Under the pieces are notes generated by a model. It was not told where the DNA came from, searched no databases, and saw only the letters and a program-made list of their open reading frames with translations. From Naegleria gruberi (taxonomy: Eukaryota): DNA of 64,000 bases. A program made the position numbers and the translations under genes. The DNA lies in the NCBI GenBank assembly GCA_000004985.1, contig GG738851.1; one strand, 5' to 3'. Of the stretch, positions 45,960 to 54,404 are shown in pieces. The first letter of the stretch is position 1, and each line of letters begins with the position of its first letter.

Positions 45960-46700
45960 TTATTCCTCAATAAACCGATGAAGTTTAATGAACTCGACTT
46001 CCTTGCACAATTCATGTTTAAATGGTACCTCATCTCTACCATATTCAACAAGTTGACAATTAGTCATGTAGTGTTTAACCAATGCAGTAGAGACATGAAA
46101 AACAACACAGGAAACTGTTTTACATCCTCCAACTTTACCAATTTTCATCAAAGTTTCAATAATCATTGGAGCAAAACCACGTTCCTCACCATCTTGTCCC
46201 CATTTAAACATTGTTCCTCTTTCAATGTTTTCAGATTTAGCCAACATTCCAAAATATAAAGTTCCAGATCCATCCAAATCATGTGTTGTAAATTCCAAAA
46301 AGATACTTCCAATTAATTCTGTTTCATCTCTATAAAAACAAACAATTCCAGCACACTTTTCTGAATCGTGATGAGTACTTTGAATTAATTGTTGCACCTC
46401 CGAATCAGAAGTTCTCTTTCTCTCTTCTCCCAACTTGAAGGCGTGTCCTTCCTTACGGTAGGCAAGATTTACCATCTCTCTAATTGCACTATATTGTTCA
46501 GGAATGGCCAATCTAAAAGATAATTTACTTGTGGAGGTCTTATCAGGAAGCACCATCAGTGGTTGAAAATCCGAAAGTACTTGTGAGACTTTATTATCAT
46601 CCCAAAATTGTTTAAAACCTAAATATTTTCACATTGATTAGCGTGTTAACTCACAACGGAAAATCAACATACTCTTATTAGTGGTTGATGGTGTAGCCAT
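45960..46700 (-). CDS. GNAT-family N-acetyltransferase, 2 exons
   Basis: join(45960..46618,46673..46700), complement. 54-nt intron (GTATGT..TATTTAG). Exon 1 'MATPSTTNK'. GNAT motif A region 'GIVCFYRDETELIGSIFLEF...'. Confidence 0.65.
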
Positions 46701-46757: not shown

Positions 46758-48413
46758 CTAGTCAGAAAATGTGAATAGTGTTTCAAATAATTCTTGGAGA
46801 TTTCGTTGAATGGAATGAAGAGCATCTCTTGATATGATTGGTTCCATGCAAGAAAGAGAAATAATGAGCTTGGCAGAGTGTTTCTCATTAGGAGGGAGTG
46901 TGAGAGCGCCACATGCTAAGCATCCAGCCAATGCTGATGTGTTTGCAATTGTGTACATGGAGTGAATAGTCAATGGGGTAGAAGAAAGTTGATAACTTCT
47001 TTTCACAGAATCAAGTTGACCATTATTCGTCACTATAAAGTTAACAGGTAGTCCAGCAAGGAAAACATCATTATTTTCTAATGTTTTGGCCATGGCTGTT
47101 TCTCTAGTGAGAGGAGATTGAAGAACATTTGTCAAAATAAATTGGTTTTCAAAATTGGCTGCGTGATTAGAGAGAATTTGTTTTGCATGACTGACGATGG
47201 TTTTCTTCACATCATAACAGGAATCGAATTTTAAATCCTCAATGAAAACACCCACATGTAAGGAAAGAGTGTTTCCATCCAGAACTTGAGAAAGGTGAGG
47301 AATTTTGCTTAATCCAGTTGGATAACCCACTCTAACACAACTATTTGGATGCAATGGATTTTTGTCATGCTCTCTAGCAGCTTTCAAATAGGCGAGTGAA
47401 AGTAATGGAATAAGGCATGAATTAATTGAGACGCCATGTTGTTTGGTAAAATTTCTAAAGTGCTTTAGAGTGTCCCCTTCAAATTCTAACTTCACCATGC
47501 TAACTGTCTTGTGCTCGTGTCTCCTATCGAATTGGATTAAATATTGGTTAGGTTTGTTGAATATCATCTCCTTGATAAATGGAAAGGCATATTTCAAAGA
47601 TTTCCACTTGGCTGAGAATGAGTTTAATCTTGAATCCATTATTATTTCATCAGTAGATGCAAGTAGTTTCTTAATTTCCACTTGTTCTGTTTCTCTTTCC
47701 ATACTCACATTTTCACATTCTCTCAATACTTGTCCTATAAAATTGGAAATTGAAATTCCGTCTCCTATACTATGATTATATCTCACAATCAAATACAAAT
47801 CATTTCCATTCATATAATAATACAATTCCAATTGAAAATCCTTCTCCAAATCGTAACTCTTTTGTGTGAGTACCTGTTCAATATATTCCTGCATTGGATT
47901 TTCATTCTTCTCAAACTCTTTCATTTCTCCCTCTAAATTAACAATTGGAATGAGAGGAAGATATTGATCATCCATCAATTCAAAAGAAAAAGCCAGTTTT
48001 GAACCCTTTGGATTTCTAATAATTCTACTTCTCAATAGAGGCTGTCCCTTTTGAACTCTATCAACAGCCCTTCTCAATACTCCATCAAAATTAAAAGCCT
48101 TTTCAATTTTAATATGCGCAACTCTAAACACCAAACCATTGCCATACTTTTTCAGAGAGGGAGTCAACATGATTTGTTCATTCGGAGACAAATTTCTTCT
48201 ATCCAGAATATGTCGTTCCTTATCACAATTATTGGTTTTGTAGACATGTGAATTTAAAAGTTGATTGGATTGTGTTGAATAGTTGTAATATGATGATCCT
48301 ATTGTTCTAGAAGTAATTTGGACACTGTTCTTCAGGGATGTTGCAAGCAACAAGGAAGATTTGTGTTGCACTTCTTTAATGGAGCGAACGGAATGCTTTG
48401 CCAATTTAAACAT
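46758..48413 (-). CDS. HxxxD-motif acyltransferase (condensation/CAT-like superfamily), probable mitochondrial presequence
   Basis: 551-aa ORF. 'YNHSIGDGISISNF' (HxxxDG catalytic motif). Basic, hydroxylated N-terminus. Confidence 0.55.
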   Translation of the reverse strand: MFKLAKHSVRSIKEVQHKSSLLLATSLKNSVQITSRTIGSSYYNYSTQSNQLLNSHVYKTNNCDKERHILDRRNLSPNEQIMLTPSLKKYGNGLVFRVAHIKIEKAFNFDGVLRRAVDRVQKGQPLLRSRIIRNPKGSKLAFSFELMDDQYLPLIPIVNLEGEMKEFEKNENPMQEYIEQVLTQKSYDLEKDFQLELYYYMNGNDLYLIVRYNHSIGDGISISNFIGQVLRECENVSMERETEQVEIKKLLASTDEIIMDSRLNSFSAKWKSLKYAFPFIKEMIFNKPNQYLIQFDRRHEHKTVSMVKLEFEGDTLKHFRNFTKQHGVSINSCLIPLLSLAYLKAAREHDKNPLHPNSCVRVGYPTGLSKIPHLSQVLDGNTLSLHVGVFIEDLKFDSCYDVKKTIVSHAKQILSNHAANFENQFILTNVLQSPLTRETAMAKTLENNDVFLAGLPVNFIVTNNGQLDSVKRSYQLSSTPLTIHSMYTIANTSALAGCLACGALTLPPNEKHSAKLIISLSCMEPIISRDALHSIQRNLQELFETLFTFSD

Positions 48414-48470
48414 TTTTTAATAAGAAATCTGAACAGTAAATTAATTACAAAATTAAATTATCAACATATA

Positions 48471-48496
48471 GGGCAAAATATTTCAATTCCGATCAC
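48471..48496 (+). repeat. left terminal inverted repeat
   Basis: See mobile element. Confidence 0.8.
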
Positions 48497-48691
48497 CCTC
48501 GATTTTCGATCATCTTGAACAATTTTAATAGTAAACTTTCAAAGTTTTTATAATGTATATGTAGTAGTGTGGGTCTTCTCTACCCGTATCGTTTGTTTGT
48601 TTTGGTGAATAAATTGTTTTGCAATAAAATTACCAAAGTTTACAACCATGTTTAATATGAAAAAAATATAATTCCGATCACCTTCATCATC

Positions 48692-50474
48692 ATGGTTAAG
48701 AAGAAATTAACAAAAAAGCAGGAACATGAACAACAGCAACAGGAAGAGGAGGAGAAGAGAGAGAAAGCATTAGAATATTATAATACCACAAATGGTGCAT
48801 CCATCAGAAGCGTAGCCAAAAAATTCGACATTCCATATACAACTTTTAATGATCTAGTAAATGGAAGATCATCAATTAATTCACATGCTGGTAGAAAGAC
48901 CTACTTTACTAAAGAGGAAGAGGATGAATTAAAGGAGTGGATATTTGAAAGGAATGATAATAATTTACCTGTCAATGAATATGATGTGATTAACAAAGCC
49001 AACAAGATGTATGAGTACAAGTACAATAAACCAAAAGATCTCTCTGATGGATGGTATCAAGACTTCAGAAGTAGGAATCATGATATTGCTGTTAGAGAAG
49101 CAGAAAGGCTTGAACAAGTTAGAACTGAAAGTGAAAATTCCCAAGTCGTAGAATTATTCTTTGATCAATTAGAGAAGGAAATTAAAAAGAATAACTTAAT
49201 GCCTGACCATATCTATAATTGTGATGAAACAGGAATCCAAAGGAATGAAACTACAGGATACACTCTTGCCAAAAAAAGGAAGTCATCCATCTATGGTAAC
49301 TTCTTCATCTAGAGAAACATGTTCAATACTTGTTTGTGGAAATGCTGCAGGATCATATGTTCCTCCTCTATTTATTTATAAAGGAAAATCCGTATCAGAT
49401 GATATGTTCAGTGATTTGGATAGTAAAGCAACGGTATTTGCTACTGAGAATGGATTTATTACAACAAATTGCTTTTTGAGTTGGATGAAGAAGAACTTTA
49501 TTGAACACATACCTTCAAGTAGACCAGTATTATTATTGTACGATAATCATTCCACTCACTGTGATTCTGATGTGTTGGAATATGCCAAGCAAAATAATAT
49601 TATTGTTATGTCCATTCCACCACACTTGAGTCACTTATATCAACCACTTGATGTAGGTGTTTTCTCATCCATGAAACAAAGTTTCAAACATTTTAATACT
49701 GAGTTCATGAAAAATAATTTAACCTCCTCACCATCCAAAAAAGACTTTACAAAGATATTACATGAAGCATATGAAAATTCTGCATCCCATCATAATATTG
49801 TTAGTGGATTCAAAGAAGCTTGTATTGTACCACTTGATAAGAAGTCAGCACTTGCCAAAATTCAACATTCCAAAAATAGTAATCAAGATGAAAAACCACC
49901 TTCCAAATTTGGAAATTTATTACATGAACCACCAAAACAAACCAAAGAAAAAACCAGAGTGAAAACTAACTTTGTACTAACACGCAACGACTATATGGTA
50001 ACAGCACTAGAAAAAAAAGCAGAAAAAGAAAAACAGAAAAGAAAGAAAGAGGAAGGAAAGACCCTTAGAGAAGCAAAGAAGAAAGCTAAAATCGAAACTC
50101 GTGCCCAAAACACCCTGTTGAAGAAACAGAAGCAACATGGTGTGGTTTGTTCATGTCATCATGCTTGTGGATCTAATCATACATGTAAATGCAAATTGGC
50201 GGGAAAAATGTGTACTATGTATTGTACTTGCCATGCAAAGTGTGCATATTCTATGGATAGAAATCCAACCTCCTCTCCAAGTGCATCATCATCACAAAAT
50301 ATATGCTGCTACTCTGGATGTAAATTTAAAGACGATCATGATGGTATGGTGACATGTTCGACTTGTAAAAAATTATGCCATTCCAAAACATGTACAATGC
50401 CATCAACAGAAACAATCAATGGAAAAGAGATTACCAACATCTTATGTATTGATTGTGGAGAGAAAGAGCCATGA
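48692..50474 (+). CDS. pogo-type transposase (CENP-B/Tc5-like HTH + DDE_1 domain + C-terminal Cys-rich CXC-like tail), reading frame broken by a +/-1 shift at an A7 tract (49271..49277)
   Basis: Frame 1 (48692..49312) reads '..CDETGIQ..TLAKKRKS'. Frame 2 (49221..50474) reads '..GSHPSMVTSSSRETCSILVCGNAAGSYVPPLFIYKGK...LLLYDNHSTHC...PPHLSHLYQPLDVGVF'. One extra A in the A7 run would fuse them ('TLAKKGSHPS'). C-terminal 'CSCHHACGSNHTCKCKLAGKMCTMYCTCHAKC'. Confidence 0.75.
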
Positions 50475-50537
50475 CTTCCCAATGACTTTTCAAATAAATC
50501 AACAATTTATTGCTGCACCAGTGATCGGAATTTGAAT

Positions 50538-50563
50538 GTGATCGGAATTAAATTATTTTGCCC
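50538..50563 (-). repeat. right terminal inverted repeat
   Basis: See mobile element. Confidence 0.8.
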
Positions 50564-50922
50564 TAATAGTTGGAAATTTAAATCCGTAGGTACTTGTATC
50601 CTCTCCAGAACGAAGATACAATTTCATTGGAATTTGTTGATGACGAGTTGAATTTTTGAAAATTTCGGACAATAATTAAAATTGTAATTTTTAAATGTAA
50701 CGGTAAAGATTTTAAAAAAATTAAGAAATTCCATCCTCACTTTATTCATATTATTACATAATGATGAACAAACACTCTAAAAGGTTGCGTTGGGGTATGG
50801 ACATCTTCATTAAAATTGAAGTCCACTCAGTAAGCGAGCACTTTCTCCACTCATCATCATGCTAAGGAATTTAGGCTTCTTGATTGTCATCATTTACAAT
50901 ATCAAAAAAAACACAAGAGAGA

Positions 50923-51795
50923 ATGGTCTTTGAATTAACTTATTTCGGAATTGCTGGTCGTGCTGTAAGTAAAAGAGAGTTTTTATTGGAGAGATTAATG
51001 AAATAATTCGTAATGTGCTTGGAATGGAATATTCAACATGATCAACTTTTTAATTTCGGCTTTTTGTATGTGATCATCAACATGAATGTACATTCCTTGA
51101 TCATCACAATTTATTATTAAATTCCACTATATTTGGATAATGATTGTTATATGAAATTATTAACATACTAATTGTACCTTTTATTACATCATCAATATAT
51201 TGTAGGAAGCAATCAAGCTTATTGCTGAAGTTGGAGGTACCCAATACACCTTTACACCAGTTTCCTTCCAAGATTGGCCTAAAGTAAAGCCAACAACCAA
51301 GTATGGCCAATTGCCAGTATTGAAAAACTCTGAAGATGAAAGCTTTGAGCTATGCCAAAGTATTGCAATTGCTAGATTTTTCGCTCGTGAAGGTAACTTG
51401 TACCCAACATTGAACGTTGATGCTTCCTTCTCTGATGAATATGTCAACACTATCAAGGTATGTTAAATTCTATTCACATTTATTGAACTATACAATAGGA
51501 TTTAAATGATGCCTATTTCAAAGCAATCTTCTCTCCAAATAAGGAAGAAGAATTGAGAAAGTACTATGAAGGACCATTCGTTCAAACATTGGCTGCATTG
51601 GAAAAGGAAGTCAAACCAAGTGGTTTCCTTGTGGGTACTGCCTTGAGTTGGGCTGATTTATTCTTATTCGATTTATTGTCAGGAGTTGGCAAGGACAAGG
51701 AATTGCCAACTAAATTGGCTGCTCTTAAGGAAACTATTGCAGCCAATCCTAAAGTTATTGAATATTATCAGTCAGATAGAAATTTAAGAAAGTAA
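50923..51795 (+). CDS. sigma-class glutathione S-transferase (HPGDS-like), 3 exons
   Basis: join(50923..50964,51206..51457,51499..51795). Introns 241 nt (GTAAGT..TTGTAG) and 41 nt (GTATGT..CAATAG), both phase 0. 'LTYFGIAGRAEAIKLI...YGQLPVLK...SIAIARFFA'. Confidence 0.8.
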
Positions 51796-51892: not shown

Positions 51893-53512
51893 ATGGTCTT
51901 TAAATCAGCTCTTCATGATGAATACGATATCAAGAATCTCTCTGTTCATTCCTCCGTTAAAGTAGTGAATGGATTTTCCGTAGAGAGAAAGGCAACTTTT
52001 GTTTTCTTGTCGAATCTTGGAGTTTGTTTTAATATTGGTCTTCCGATTGATGTTATTGATCGTGATTCCAAGTTTGTTGTCAATGATAAACAAAATCATG
52101 TGATTAATTATTTGTGTTTGACTGATGTATTGAGTGAAAATATTCAAGGATTAATTTCACTTGTGGAAGACAAGGTAGAATTATTTAGCAGAGGAAAGTT
52201 GACAACCAAGTTGAAGATTTTCATTTCGGAAAAGAAGAGCGAGCTCATCACCAATATTTGTAGAGGAATTGTTGATGGAAGAGGGAATATGAGTGATGTT
52301 GTCGAAGTTATTGGAATTAGTGACTTTTTCAAGAGCTTTGAATTACCAAATTCACTCGAATTGAAAGCTTTCCCTGTCAATGATGAAAATACTGAAGTTG
52401 GTTATTCAATTGTGGAAAAGAAGAAGAAATTGAAAGCTGAATTGGCTGAGCAAGTTAAGAATTTAAAGGCAAACGAAAAGAAATTATTCATGCAAGATGA
52501 AAATAATTTTGAAATTACAGAAAGTATTGTTTTTACCTTTGTCAGACAATTGGATATCTCTTCAAAGGTTATGGAGTGTAATAAGGTCATTCTCTCTAAT
52601 TCTAATACTTTGTGTATTGGTTGTTCAGAGTTGCAACACTATTTGGGTTACAATGAAAGTGATAAGACAGTCAAGCAAAATTCAACTCTTGATATTGTCA
52701 ACTTGAACAAATATGTTCTCGACCATTTTAATGGAAAGAATCTCATTTTGACCTACTTGCCAAAGAATCTGTGTCTAGATGGTGATTGTGACATGTATTG
52801 TTTCATTATTCCACGTATTCCAAAAGATCAAAGAAAGAAACTCAAACTCTTATCTCATCGACCAAAACTTGTCGAATCTACACCTAACCCATATAGTCTT
52901 GAGGAAATTAAGGAAATTCACAACAAGAGACAATGGATTGAATACGAAACCAAGTATTTGGATAAGAGTGAATACATGTATGGACAACGTGGATTCTACA
53001 TGGGAGGTGGTTCACAAAAAGCCAAGAAAGTTGAACAGCTCAAGACTCAATATCCTCGTGGTTATATTGTTGCATATGATTTTGAAGGAAATTACATTGA
53101 TAGATCATCTGCTTTTGCTTTCTATGAGGATTCTTATTATACTTTCTTACAAGAACACCCAGAAATTTTGGATAATATTTGTGAGAATTACATTGATGTC
53201 TATGATACAGAACCAAGTAATATTCTAAGTGGATATGATTACAGCATTCAAGAACAAGGAAAGGCAACTCACTTACAAGATATTGCCCTTAGAAGAGCTA
53301 TCAAACGATTGGGAAGAGAACTCAAAGGAAAGGAGCTCGTTCAAGTTAGAGGTTATCGTACTAAATTATTCTGCCTCAATCCTGCCATGGTTGTTTTCCA
53401 TAAGAGAGCAAGTATTATTCAACCAGAAATCACTGAAGAATTCATGTTGGAAGGAAGTATTGAAAGCTTTTGGCAGAGTAATAAGGTCATTCTCACTCCA
53501 CAAGAAAAATAG
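51893..53512 (+). CDS. hypothetical protein (539 aa), lies between two GST paralogues
   Basis: Uninterrupted ORF. No recognisable domain. Internal repeat of 'NKVIL'. Confidence 0.5.
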   Translation: MVFKSALHDEYDIKNLSVHSSVKVVNGFSVERKATFVFLSNLGVCFNIGLPIDVIDRDSKFVVNDKQNHVINYLCLTDVLSENIQGLISLVEDKVELFSRGKLTTKLKIFISEKKSELITNICRGIVDGRGNMSDVVEVIGISDFFKSFELPNSLELKAFPVNDENTEVGYSIVEKKKKLKAELAEQVKNLKANEKKLFMQDENNFEITESIVFTFVRQLDISSKVMECNKVILSNSNTLCIGCSELQHYLGYNESDKTVKQNSTLDIVNLNKYVLDHFNGKNLILTYLPKNLCLDGDCDMYCFIIPRIPKDQRKKLKLLSHRPKLVESTPNPYSLEEIKEIHNKRQWIEYETKYLDKSEYMYGQRGFYMGGGSQKAKKVEQLKTQYPRGYIVAYDFEGNYIDRSSAFAFYEDSYYTFLQEHPEILDNICENYIDVYDTEPSNILSGYDYSIQEQGKATHLQDIALRRAIKRLGRELKGKELVQVRGYRTKLFCLNPAMVVFHKRASIIQPEITEEFMLEGSIESFWQSNKVILTPQEK

Positions 53513-53792: not shown

Positions 53793-54404
53793 ATGACTCT
53801 CGAAATCTTTTACTTTGAAGGACCTGGAAGAGCTGAAATTCTCAAACTCATTGCTCACGTAGTTAATGTCGATTACAAGTTTACCAGCATTCCACGTGAC
53901 CAATGGCCAGCCCAAAAGGAAAATGCAAGATATGGTCAACTTCCATACTTGAAAATTAATGACAAGTGGACACTTTATCAAACCATTGCAATTGCCAGAT
54001 ATCTTGCTCAACAAGGTGATTTGTATCCATCTAACATTGAAGAAGCAACCAAATCTGAAGAATACGTTGCAGCTTTGGATGAACTCTTGATAAAGTTTAT
54101 TAGAGTTTTCTTCGTTGCTTCAGAAGAAAGTAGGGAACAAGAATTAAAGACCTTCCTTGAAGGACCTGTTAAGACTATCCTTGGTGCCTTGGAAAAGATT
54201 TTGGAAGAGAATGGAGATGGTCATCTCATTAAGGGAAAGCTCACTTGGGCTGATTTTATCTTGTTGGATATTGTCTGTTTTTTCCAATTCAAGAATGTTG
54301 ATGTGAGTCACTTGACACATATTTTGAAATCCAAGGAAGTCATTAAAGCCCTTCCAAGATTCCAAGACTACGTCACCAAAGACTACAATTTTAGACAGTT
54401 TTAA
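53793..54404 (+). CDS. sigma-class glutathione S-transferase (second paralogue, intronless)
   Basis: 'MTLEIFYFEGPGRAEILKLI...YGQLPYLK...TIAIARYLA'. Same fold as the gene at 50923. Confidence 0.8.
   Translation: MTLEIFYFEGPGRAEILKLIAHVVNVDYKFTSIPRDQWPAQKENARYGQLPYLKINDKWTLYQTIAIARYLAQQGDLYPSNIEEATKSEEYVAALDELLIKFIRVFFVASEESREQELKTFLEGPVKTILGALEKILEENGDGHLIKGKLTWADFILLDIVCFFQFKNVDVSHLTHILKSKEVIKALPRFQDYVTKDYNFRQF

What the first reader, a model, noticed from the sequence alone, without database searches (positions are those of the whole stretch)
48469..50565. Structurally complete pogo/Tigger-like transposon inserted 57 bp upstream of an acyltransferase gene; transposase is one A-tract slip away from intact and carries a CXC-like Cys-rich C-terminal domain
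26-bp TIRs (23/26 match) are flanked by a TA duplication, the classic pogo signature. There are subterminal copies of the TIR core. The transposase ORF is split only at an A7 homopolymer (49271..49277), and one extra A restores a continuous protein. That points to a very recent or still-active element, a sequencing error, or programmed slippage. The C-terminal 'CSCHHACGSNHTCKCKLAGKMCTMYCTCHAKC' resembles a tesmin/TSO1-type CXC module. That is not a standard part of pogo transposases and may be a domain fusion. The insertion sits in the 5' flank of the minus-strand gene 46758..48413.
Basis: partly seen in the sequence, partly recalled or inferred. Interest (0 to 1): 0.6.

Follow-up and report, generated by a model that had tools for sequence, protein, structure and literature searches.

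The report
Frameshifted Naegleria pogo transposon, zinc-finger tail
This is an ordinary cut-and-paste pogo-type transposon in the Naegleria gruberi genome, disabled by one extra A in its transposase gene. Its one unusual feature is a conserved cysteine-rich zinc-binding tail that the pogo surveys I read do not describe.

Summary
The window is Naegleria gruberi DNA. Positions 48471..50563 are a 2,093-bp pogo-superfamily DNA transposon.

- **Ends:** 26-nt inverted repeats match 24/26. TA flanks both ends. The 12-mer AATTCCGATCAC occurs four times near the ends.
- **Transposase:** psq and CENP-B-type HTH domains plus a DDE_1 domain with DD35D spacing.
- **Frameshift:** the gene is broken only at the A7 run 49271..49277. 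One fewer A (A6), or two more, restores a 593-aa ORF; one extra A does not. A 58%-identical relative has A6 in frame, and other relatives read TLAKKGS or close variants without a shift. The A7 is most likely an ordinary 1-bp insertion.
- **Other copies:** a fragment inside gene model NAEGRDRAFT_70546 on another scaffold, and a 97.8%-identical TA-flanked deletion derivative in a metagenome.
- **C-terminal tail:** a nine-cysteine module plus a second, eight-ligand zinc-finger-like module. Both are conserved in most relatives where this region is readable, including Naegleria fowleri copies.
- **CXC claim:** no direct Pfam match. The link to tesmin/TSO1 CXC domains is only indirect and weak to moderate.

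Verdict: a real, recently inactivated transposon; a new variant of a known kind; modest interest.

The parts
48469..48470 (.). Left copy of the TA target-site duplication
   Evidence: Same-family copies at other insertion sites are also TA-flanked: L005 and L002 at both ends, L001 at its one assembled end.
48471..48496 (+). Left terminal inverted repeat, GGGCAAAATATTTCAATTCCGATCAC
   Evidence: 24/26 match to the reverse complement of 50538-50563. The pattern is found only at these two places, 0 expected.
48660..48685 (+). Internal direct copy of the TIR core (exact 12-mer AATTCCGATCAC at 48670-48681), 11 bp upstream of the ATG. Inferred to be a second transposase-binding site.
   Evidence: (D2, 81% over 26 nt). 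The binding role is inference.
48692..49276 (+). Transposase gene, part 1 (aa 1-195). It holds HTH_psq (aa 24-59, weak), HTH_Tnp_Tc5 (aa 74-134) and the first catalytic Asp, D178 (49223-49225).
49271..49277 (+). A7 homopolymer carrying the frameshift. The ancestral state is inferred to be A6 (GCC AAA AAA GGA = A K K G).
   Evidence: A6 or A9 restores the ORF, A8 does not; relative L001 has A6 in frame; relatives read TLAKKGS or close variants (TLAKLGS, TLAKRGT, TLAQKGS) without a shift.
49278..50474 (+). Transposase gene, part 2 (aa 196-593 plus stop). It holds DDE_1 (about 49314-49811), D284 (49542-44), D320 (49650-52) and a Lys/Glu-rich linker.
   Evidence: DD35D.
50148..50243 (+). Cys module 1, CXC-like: CxCx3Cx5CxCx6Cx3CxCx3C, nine invariant Cys
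   Evidence: invariant columns. Searches give indirect links to tesmin/TSO1 and EZH2 CXC domains.
50304..50459 (+). Cys module 2: CCx3Cx12Cx2Cx3CHx3Cx17Cx2C, a putative two-zinc cross-brace finger
50521..50532 (-). Right subterminal copy of the TIR core AATTCCGATCAC
   Evidence: (D19).
50538..50563 (-). Right terminal inverted repeat
   Evidence: The same end sequence is present in L001 and L005.
50564..50565 (.). Right copy of the TA target-site duplication

Best explanation
A 2,093-bp class II cut-and-paste transposon of the pogo superfamily has integrated at a TA. It belongs to a clade seen so far only in Naegleria (N. gruberi, N. fowleri) and in unassigned metagenome contigs.

The site lies in the roughly 0.4-kb region between two divergently oriented genes. 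One is NAEGRDRAFT_63657 (condensation-domain acyltransferase type, minus strand). The other is a GST-like gene (plus strand).

The ends and subterminal binding-site repeats are intact. The transposase gene of this copy carries a 1-bp insertion in a homopolymer (A6 to A7). That truncates the protein after the DNA-binding domains and the first catalytic Asp. This copy is therefore non-autonomous, but a transposase made elsewhere could still move it.

The full transposase has five parts in order: psq/CENP-B-type HTH domains, a DDE_1 (DD35D) domain, a Lys/Glu-rich linker, a nine-Cys CXC-like module, and a second zinc-finger-like module. Both Cys modules are conserved across relatives only 34-60% identical over this region, so they are needed for the element's own life cycle.

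Inferred, not shown: the Cys modules bind zinc, and they give extra DNA or chromatin contacts for end recognition or target choice, as CXC domains of LIN54 and MSL2 and the Cys-rich domain of piggyBac do.
For: Source organism: neighbouring ORFs are exact matches to N. gruberi EFC48484.1 and EFC48483.1.

Transposon anatomy:
- TIR 24/26 and TA flanks.
- The TIR pattern is unique to the two ends.
- Four copies of the 12-mer core against 0.18 expected.

Transposase: DDE_1 E 9.2e-23, HTH_Tnp_Tc5 E 2.7e-8, HTH_psq E 0.0026. Catalytic residues D178, D284, D320, with 35 residues between the last two.

Frameshift as mutation:
- A6 restores 593 aa with no other stop.
- L001 has GCC AAA AAA GGA in frame.
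- P0033, P0031, P0035 and P0003 run through this site without a shift.

Mobility and further copies:
- P0008 (NAEGRDRAFT_70546, on a 362,555-bp scaffold; the window's scaffold is 693,645 bp) ends in 83 residues identical to the element's linker. Its CobW/TPR part is absent from the window.
- L005 is a 97.8%-identical, TA-flanked, roughly 790-bp deletion derivative with different flanks.
- L002 and L012 are full-length relatives of about 2.1 kb with TA flanks, 26-29-nt TIRs starting GGG(C/T)AAA, and subterminal repeats.

C-terminal conservation: all nine Cys of module 1 are invariant, and the Cys/His of module 2 are at least 90% conserved. An exhaustive profile search of 1.84 billion proteins found only 11 hits. 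Eight are C-terminal regions of this transposase clade (three full-length transposases, one DDE-plus-C-terminal fragment, four shorter fragments).
Against: - Copy number in the N. gruberi assembly could not be counted, because the genome is not in any searchable collection here. 'Recent activity' therefore rests on two other copies.
- An assembly or sequencing error at the A7 run cannot be excluded without reads.
- No fully intact copy from N. gruberi itself was seen. Only one relative (P0033, 607 aa, metagenome) is intact end to end.
- Zinc binding and any DNA or chromatin role of the C-terminal modules are inferred. The AlphaFold model of module 1 is unreliable (pLDDT <50).
Confidence: 0.85

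Rival explanations
1. The A7 tract is a programmed recoding site. This could work by +1 ribosomal frameshifting on AAA-AGG, with peptidyl-tRNA-Lys re-pairing one base downstream while the less-used AGG codon is awaited. Or it could work by polymerase slippage that makes A6 mRNA. Either way the copy would still produce some full-length transposase and a truncated DNA-binding protein.
For: The shift needed is +1, and the sequence A-AAA-AGG allows perfect re-pairing of tRNA-Lys (sequence). AGG is a minor Arg codon in 20 long host ORFs of the window, at 4.4 per 1000 against 27.5 per 1000 for AGA. Two other relatives also carry frameshifts, one of them (L004) at a different A7 run.
Against: The site is not conserved as a shift. 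L001 has A6 in frame. P0033, P0031, P0035, P0003 and P0004 read straight through. The frameshifts in L002 and L004 lie elsewhere, in the linker, and go in the opposite direction (-1). An in-frame A8 run at 50011 in the same ORF is tolerated. A-runs are ordinary indel hotspots.
Confidence: 0.05
2. The extra A is a sequencing or assembly error, and the genomic copy really encodes an intact, autonomous 593-aa transposase.
For: The lesion is a single base in a homopolymer, and the rest of the 593 codons has no stop. The TIRs and binding-site repeats are intact.
Against: Nothing here tests it directly. The exact 206-aa and 417-aa products, and any intact version more than 58% identical, are absent from the 15-billion-protein collection. 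No independent assembly supports either state. From my own knowledge, the reference genome was Sanger-sequenced, and that method has low homopolymer error at 7 nt.
Confidence: 0.1
3. The nine-Cys module is not a CXC-family domain. It would be an unrelated, lineage-specific Cys-rich zinc or metal-binding segment that resembles CXC only through its cysteine spacing.
For: No Pfam hit at E<=1 for the window's C-terminus or for intact relatives P0033, P0031 and P0035. No significant PDB sequence hit; the best is EZH2 CXC at E 0.17. hhalign against LIN54 CXC gives only 23% probability. Spacing differs from tesmin (x3/x5/x3 against x4/x4/x2). The module is single, not a tandem pair.
Against: The clade profile hits Bombus tandem-repeat proteins: P0030 at E 5e-30 summed over 24 repeats, P0036 at E 2.4e-7. 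Those proteins pass Pfam TCR/CXC, at 34.4 and 52.8 bits against a cut-off of 23.5. Their repeats hit LIN54 5fd3 at E 0.008. hhalign of the clade module against those repeats gives 78% probability, E 1.8e-5. The first eight Cys align in register with LIN54, and the only PDB hit is another CXC domain.
Confidence: 0.3

Closest known systems
pogo superfamily DNA transposons (pogo, Tigger, pogoR, Passer, Fot1, Tc5) of the IS630-Tc1-mariner group
   Same: DDE_1 catalytic domain with a DDD triad and 35-residue spacing. The published range is DD29-59D, with Passer and Fot being DD35D (PMC7386202). N-terminal psq/CENP-B-type HTH domains, short TIRs (<=40 bp, 'type 1'), TA target duplication, about 2.1 kb, one ORF.
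   Different: The TIR starts GGGCAAAAT. The host is a heterolobosean, a group the two surveys I read do not mention. The transposase carries about 110 extra C-terminal residues with two Cys-rich modules. Those surveys report added domains only for domesticated genes (CENPB, POGK, POGZ). Placement in a named family such as Tigger was not tested.
Tesmin/TSO1 (LIN54) CXC domain, Pfam PF03638; also the CXC domains of EZH2 and MSL2 (Zn3Cys9)
   Same: Nine cysteines in the order CxC...C...CxC...C...CxC...C, with the x6 and x3 central spacings identical. The homology link is indirect, through TCR-positive proteins. The best PDB hit is EZH2 CXC. Known CXC domains bind DNA or nucleosomes (PMC2879509, PMC3447885).
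   Different: No direct model hit. The spacings are x3/x5/x3 rather than x4/x4/x2. It is a single module rather than the tandem pair of tesmin/LIN54. It sits at the C-terminus of a transposase.
C-terminal cysteine-rich domain of piggyBac transposase (cross-brace zinc finger that binds subterminal repeats)
   Same: A transposase with a C-terminal Cys-rich zinc module, and an element with repeated subterminal motifs (PMC5861402, PMC7351741; window). This is the nearest functional analogy for module 2.
   Different: A different transposase superfamily with no sequence relationship. The fold of module 2 is only weakly FYVE/PHD-like here. Binding to the AATTCCGATCAC repeats is untested.

Membership tests
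pogo superfamily transposon | DDE_1 (PF03184) transposase catalytic domain | tested here: met
   E 9.2e-23, 81.1 bits against a cut-off of 22, full profile coverage 2-177/177.
pogo superfamily transposon | DDD catalytic triad with 29-59 residues between the last two Asp | tested here: met
   D178, D284, D320, so DD35D. The range is taken from PMC7386202.
pogo superfamily transposon | N-terminal CENP-B/Tc5-type HTH DNA-binding domains | tested here: met
   HTH_Tnp_Tc5 scores 34.1 bits against a cut-off of 22.2. The first HTH (psq) is below cut-off, at 17.9 against 20.4 bits.
pogo superfamily transposon | Terminal inverted repeats flanked by a TA target-site duplication | tested here: met
   TIR 24/26 with TA on both sides. 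The same holds in L005, L002 and L012.
pogo superfamily transposon | More than one copy at different genomic sites (mobility) | tested here: inconclusive
   One further fragment in N. gruberi (P0008, on another scaffold) and one deletion derivative in a metagenome. The full genome could not be searched.
Tigger family (within pogo) | Phylogenetic placement of the transposase inside the Tigger clade | not tested
   No reference set was available. The best named hit is a 'tigger 4-like' beetle protein at only 31% identity.
Tesmin/TSO1 CXC domain (PF03638) | Significant match to the family model | tested here: not met
   No hit at E<=1 for the window C-terminus or for P0033, P0031 and P0035.
Tesmin/TSO1 CXC domain (PF03638) | Nine-Cys CxC...CxC...CxC pattern | tested here: met
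   Nine invariant Cys, CxCx3Cx5CxCx6Cx3CxCx3C. The first eight align in register with LIN54 domain 2.
Tesmin/TSO1 CXC domain (PF03638) | Profile-level homology to bona fide members | tested here: inconclusive
   The profile hits TCR-positive Bombus proteins. hhalign gives 78% probability, E 1.8e-5, but only 23% against LIN54 alone.
Tesmin/TSO1 CXC domain (PF03638) | Tandem pair of CXC modules separated by a short spacer (CRC arrangement) | tested here: not met
   There is one CXC-like module. The second Cys module has a different pattern.
Tesmin/TSO1 CXC domain (PF03638) | Zn3Cys9 cluster | not testable with these tools
   The AlphaFold models of this part have pLDDT <50.
PHD/FYVE-type cross-brace zinc finger (module 2) | Model hit, or a significant fold match with eight ligands in cross-brace order | tested here: inconclusive
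Programmed frameshift site | The shift site and the two-frame arrangement are conserved in relatives | tested here: not met
   Relatives are in frame at this site.

The most novel reading that the evidence does not exclude
The CXC-like module and the cross-brace-like finger could form a clade-defining targeting device fused to a pogo transposase. It would read DNA shape or chromatin and steer integration into palindromic, AT-rich, promoter-proximal TA sites. The window's insertion site is the most palindromic of about 4,160 TA sites in the window, and it lies 57 bp from a start codon. If so, these Naegleria elements would be a natural example of a Tc1/pogo-type transposase with a built-in target-selection domain.
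Probability: 0.15. Interest if true: 0.55.

Novelty: new variant of a known kind. Interest (0 to 1): 0.33.

Why it matters
As a transposon it is routine. It adds a documented pogo element, with ends, target site and deletion derivative, to Naegleria gruberi, a protist group the pogo surveys I read do not mention.

The part worth a specialist's attention is the conserved C-terminal pair of Cys-rich modules. Accessory DNA- or chromatin-binding domains on cut-and-paste transposases can govern end recognition and target choice. That matters both for understanding how compact protist genomes tolerate transposons and for engineering transposases.

The A6-restored sequence, or the intact relative P0033, gives a directly testable candidate for an active pogo element from a heterolobosean.

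The finding also flags an annotation problem. Gene model NAEGRDRAFT_70546 ends in transposon-derived sequence.

Tried and rejected
- **Pfam on the C-terminus.** Scans of the C-terminal 115 aa alone and of intact relatives gave nothing for the Cys-rich region.
- **PDB sequence searches.** The C-terminus gave only a non-significant hit to a kinase activator. The CXC profile gave EZH2 at E 0.17.
- **TIR scan of JGI metagenome contigs.** A degenerate TIR pattern gave 4 loci (L006-L009) with no other similarity to the element and no TA flanks. I rejected them as chance matches.
- **Fetching the second N. gruberi copy.** The look-up through P0008 failed because the protein is not on record. Copy number and A6/A7 state in the genome stay unknown.
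- **Viral contig scan.** No relatives were found.
- **Intron hypothesis.** I considered an intron joining the two ORFs. The only GT..AG candidate, 17 nt at about 49297-49313, does not restore the frame, and homology continues through the A-run, so I rejected it (sequence).
- **Older repeat hypothesis.** I considered that the palindromic flanks belong to the element or to an older repeat. The flanks differ between copies and are unique in the window, so I rejected it.
- **Literature.** Searches found no description of this element or of Cys-rich C-termini in pogo transposases. Repbase could not be consulted.
Full report
**Source and context.** The ORFs next to the finding are exact matches to Naegleria gruberi proteins. 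ORF 46758..48413 (-) is EFC48484.1 (NAEGRDRAFT_63657) and ORF 45960..46556 (-) is EFC48483.1. Both lie on a 693,645-bp scaffold. The window has 33.7% G+C and the element 33.5%. NAEGRDRAFT_63657 has a weak but above-threshold Condensation-domain match (E 3.8e-8), so 'acyltransferase' is a fair label. To the right lies a GST-like gene split into several ORFs; its C-terminal exon 51553..51795 matches GST_C_3 at E 1.7e-11. The element therefore sits between two divergently oriented genes. From the sequence, 57 nt (including the TA) separate the ATG at 48413 from the first TIR base. About 355 nt separate the right end from the probable GST start near 50920, which I inferred from the ORF list.

**Checking the observation.**
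- The ends read TA|GGGCAAAATATTTCAATTCCGATCAC ... GTGATCGGAATTAAATTATTTTGCCC|TA.
- The TIRs match at 24 of 26 positions, not 23.
- A degenerate TIR pattern occurs only at these two places in 64 kb, with 0 expected.
- The core AATTCCGATCAC occurs four times: 48485 and 48670 on the plus strand, 50521 and 50538 on the minus strand. Only 0.18 are expected. So there is one inner copy on each side. The arrangement is asymmetric: the left inner copy lies about 185 bp inside and 11 bp before the ATG, while the right one lies 17 bp inside.
- ORFs 48692..49312 and 49221..50474 overlap around the A7 run at 49271..49277.
- Editing the run shows that A6 or A9 gives one ORF of 593 or 594 codons with no internal stop. 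A8 gives a stop after 202 codons. One fewer A is needed.

**What it is.** The A6-restored protein matches DDE_1 (E 9.2e-23), HTH_Tnp_Tc5 (E 2.7e-8) and, weakly, HTH_psq (E 0.0026). The catalytic residues are D178, D284 and D320, with 35 residues between the last two. That lies within the range reported for pogo families; the paper gives DD29-56D in its abstract and notes up to DD59D for some pogoR elements. Passer and Fot are DD35D, and TA is the classical duplication (PMC7386202). All structural criteria for a pogo-superfamily element are met. I did not run a phylogeny, so 'Tigger-like' remains unverified. The best named hit is a beetle 'tigger 4-like' protein at 31% identity.

**Relatives and mobility.** A database search found few close relatives.
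- **P0001** is 58% identical. Its contig L001 keeps the same right end, GTGATCGGAAAAAAATTATTTTGCCC|TA. At the homologous site it reads GCC AAA AAA GGA, which is A6 and in frame.
- **Other relatives** (P0033, P0031, P0035, P0003) read TLAKKGS or close variants (TLAKRGT, TLAKLGS, TLAQKGS, KLAKKGS) straight through this site, and P0004 reads TLAIKGT. The A7 in the window is therefore a 1-bp insertion relative to the family consensus.
- **P0008** is an N. gruberi gene model, NAEGRDRAFT_70546, with TPR and CobW domains on a different, 362,555-bp scaffold. It ends in 83 residues identical to the element's linker region. Its host part is absent from the window. At least one more copy or fragment therefore exists in this genome.
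- **L005**, a metagenome contig, carries a 97.8%-identical internal-deletion derivative of about 790 bp. It is TA-flanked and has quite different flanking DNA.
- **L002 and L012**, more distant full-length relatives, share the architecture: about 2.1 kb, TA flanks, 26-29-nt TIRs starting GGG(C/T)AAA, and subterminal repeats.
- **State of decay.** Most relatives are themselves damaged. L001 has a stop codon. L002, L003 and L004 have frameshifts in the linker, L004's at another A7 run. The N. fowleri-type copy is broken just before the last CxxC. P0033 (607 aa) is intact throughout.

This is the usual picture of a transposon family with a few active and many decaying copies.

**The frameshift.** There are three readings.
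- **(a) Ordinary mutation.** This is favoured. The shift is not conserved in any relative, the relatives' own frameshifts are at other places and in the other direction, and A-runs are indel hotspots.
- **(b) Sequencing error.** This cannot be excluded without reads.
- **(c) Programmed +1 recoding on A-AAA-AGG.** This is mechanistically conceivable. tRNA-Lys could re-pair perfectly one base downstream, and AGG is a minor codon here (4.4 against 27.5 per 1000 for AGA). It has no comparative support.

Apart from this base the 593 codons are open. Taken with the near-identical second copy, that suggests the lesion is recent.

**The C-terminal region.** Alignment of ten clade members shows two modules. 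Module 1 (aa 486-517) has nine invariant Cys, arranged CxCx3Cx5CxCx6Cx3CxCx3C. After a Ser-rich spacer comes module 2 (aa 538-589), arranged CCx3Cx12Cx2Cx3CHx3Cx17Cx2C, with its Cys and His conserved. The sequences are only 34-60% identical over this region, so the ligands are under selection.

- **Direct tests fail.** There is no Pfam hit at E<=1 for the window or for intact relatives. There is no significant PDB sequence hit.
- **Exhaustive profile search.** A search of 1.84 billion representative proteins returned only 11 hits. Eight are C-terminal regions of this same transposase clade: three full-length transposases, one DDE-plus-C-terminal fragment and four shorter fragments. They include N. 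fowleri FDP41_006117, annotated as an 'HTH CENPB-type domain-containing protein'.
- **Animal repeat proteins.** The other three hits are animal tandem-repeat proteins: Bombus 'balbiani ring protein 3-like' and an Acropora protein. The two Bombus proteins match Pfam TCR (tesmin/TSO1 CXC) above threshold. Their repeats hit the LIN54 CXC structure 5fd3 at E 0.008.
- **Profile-profile comparisons.** The transposase module against the Bombus repeats gives 78% probability, E 1.8e-5. Against LIN54 alone it gives 23%, with the first eight Cys aligned in register. Its only PDB hit is the EZH2 CXC domain, at a non-significant E 0.17.

I conclude that 'CXC-like' is a reasonable description, at roughly 70% confidence. 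The module fails the formal membership test, and it is single rather than a tandem pair.

**How it most likely works.**
- **Shown:** the anatomy of a cut-and-paste pogo element, a broken transposase gene, and intact ends.
- **Inferred from established knowledge of Tc1/pogo elements:** the HTH domains bind the TIR and the inner AATTCCGATCAC repeats. The DDD domain excises the element and integrates it at TA. This copy can move only if a transposase is supplied from another copy.
- **Inferred by analogy:** the C-terminal modules bind zinc and add DNA or chromatin contacts. The analogies are the DNA-binding CXC domain of MSL2 (PMC2879509, PMC3447885) and the C-terminal Cys-rich domain of piggyBac, which binds subterminal repeats and is essential for transposition (PMC5861402, PMC7351741).

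**An unexplained detail.** The DNA just outside the two TA junctions is itself an imperfect palindrome, matching at 19 of 30 positions. None of 4,158 other TA sites in the window reaches that value (mean 8.2, maximum 18). L005's different flanks are mildly palindromic (11/20, about the top 1.3%). L002's are not. The flanks are unique in the window. This could reflect a preference for symmetric AT-rich targets, or chance with n=2.

**Novelty and score.** The two pogo and Tc1/mariner surveys I read mention neither Naegleria nor Cys-rich C-terminal modules on pogo transposases. They report added domains only in domesticated genes. [quoted passage not shown] Repbase could not be checked. I rate this a new variant of a known kind, a pogo clade with a CXC-like plus zinc-finger tail. 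Interest is modest, because the element is otherwise a textbook, recently inactivated transposon.

Noticed in passing
window 48439-48468 and 50566-50595: The host DNA flanking the insertion is an imperfect palindrome (19/30; 22/38). That exceeds all 4,158 other TA sites in the window. The flanks are not repeated elsewhere in the window and differ from those of the related copy L005, which are mildly palindromic themselves.
   Followed up: partly
P0008 = NAEGRDRAFT_70546 (EFC41527.1), on another N. gruberi scaffold: This TPR/CobW gene model ends in 83 residues identical to the transposon's linker region. Either a transposon fragment was wrongly annotated as the last exon, or it has really been exonised. 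The DNA could not be fetched.
   Followed up: partly
L005 199-987 (ENA ERZ929261 contig k127_317334): A deletion derivative of about 790 bp of the same element (97.8% identical) that keeps both ends and a TA duplication. Its left TIR has lost about 11 nt, including most of the AATTCCGATCAC core. Its right end abuts the stop codon of a 251-aa ORF on the opposite strand.
   Followed up: partly
L004 about 1560-1570; L002 about 1820-1840; L010 about 6700: Relatives carry their own lesions. L004 has a -1 frameshift at another A7 run in the linker. L002 and L003 have a -1 frameshift in the linker. The N. fowleri-type copy is broken just before the final CxxC. Only P0033 (607 aa, JGI 3300035182) is intact throughout.
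   Followed up: partly
L012 1646-3775 (ENA ERZ27315067): A related full-length element with a 29-nt, 97%-complementary inverted-repeat arm pair (including the flanking A/TA; TIR proper about 26 nt). It lies between two ORFs that both match Sel1 repeats, so it may interrupt a Sel1-repeat gene.
   Followed up: no
P0030, P0036 (Bombus), P0034 (Acropora): Animal proteins made of 10-24 tandem CXC-type repeats. They are annotated 'balbiani ring protein 3-like' or 'MEGF10-like'. The two Bombus proteins pass Pfam TCR. Their function is unknown to me.
   Followed up: no
window about 50920-51795 and 53793-54404: Two GST-like genes lie on the plus strand. The first is split into several ORFs, by introns or decay. 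The second is an intact 203-aa ORF with GST_N and GST_C domains.
   Followed up: partly
window 51893-53512 (+): A 539-aa ORF with only a faint match to the DarT1-associated NADAR family (E 0.072, below cut-off). The exact sequence is not in the protein collection.
   Followed up: no
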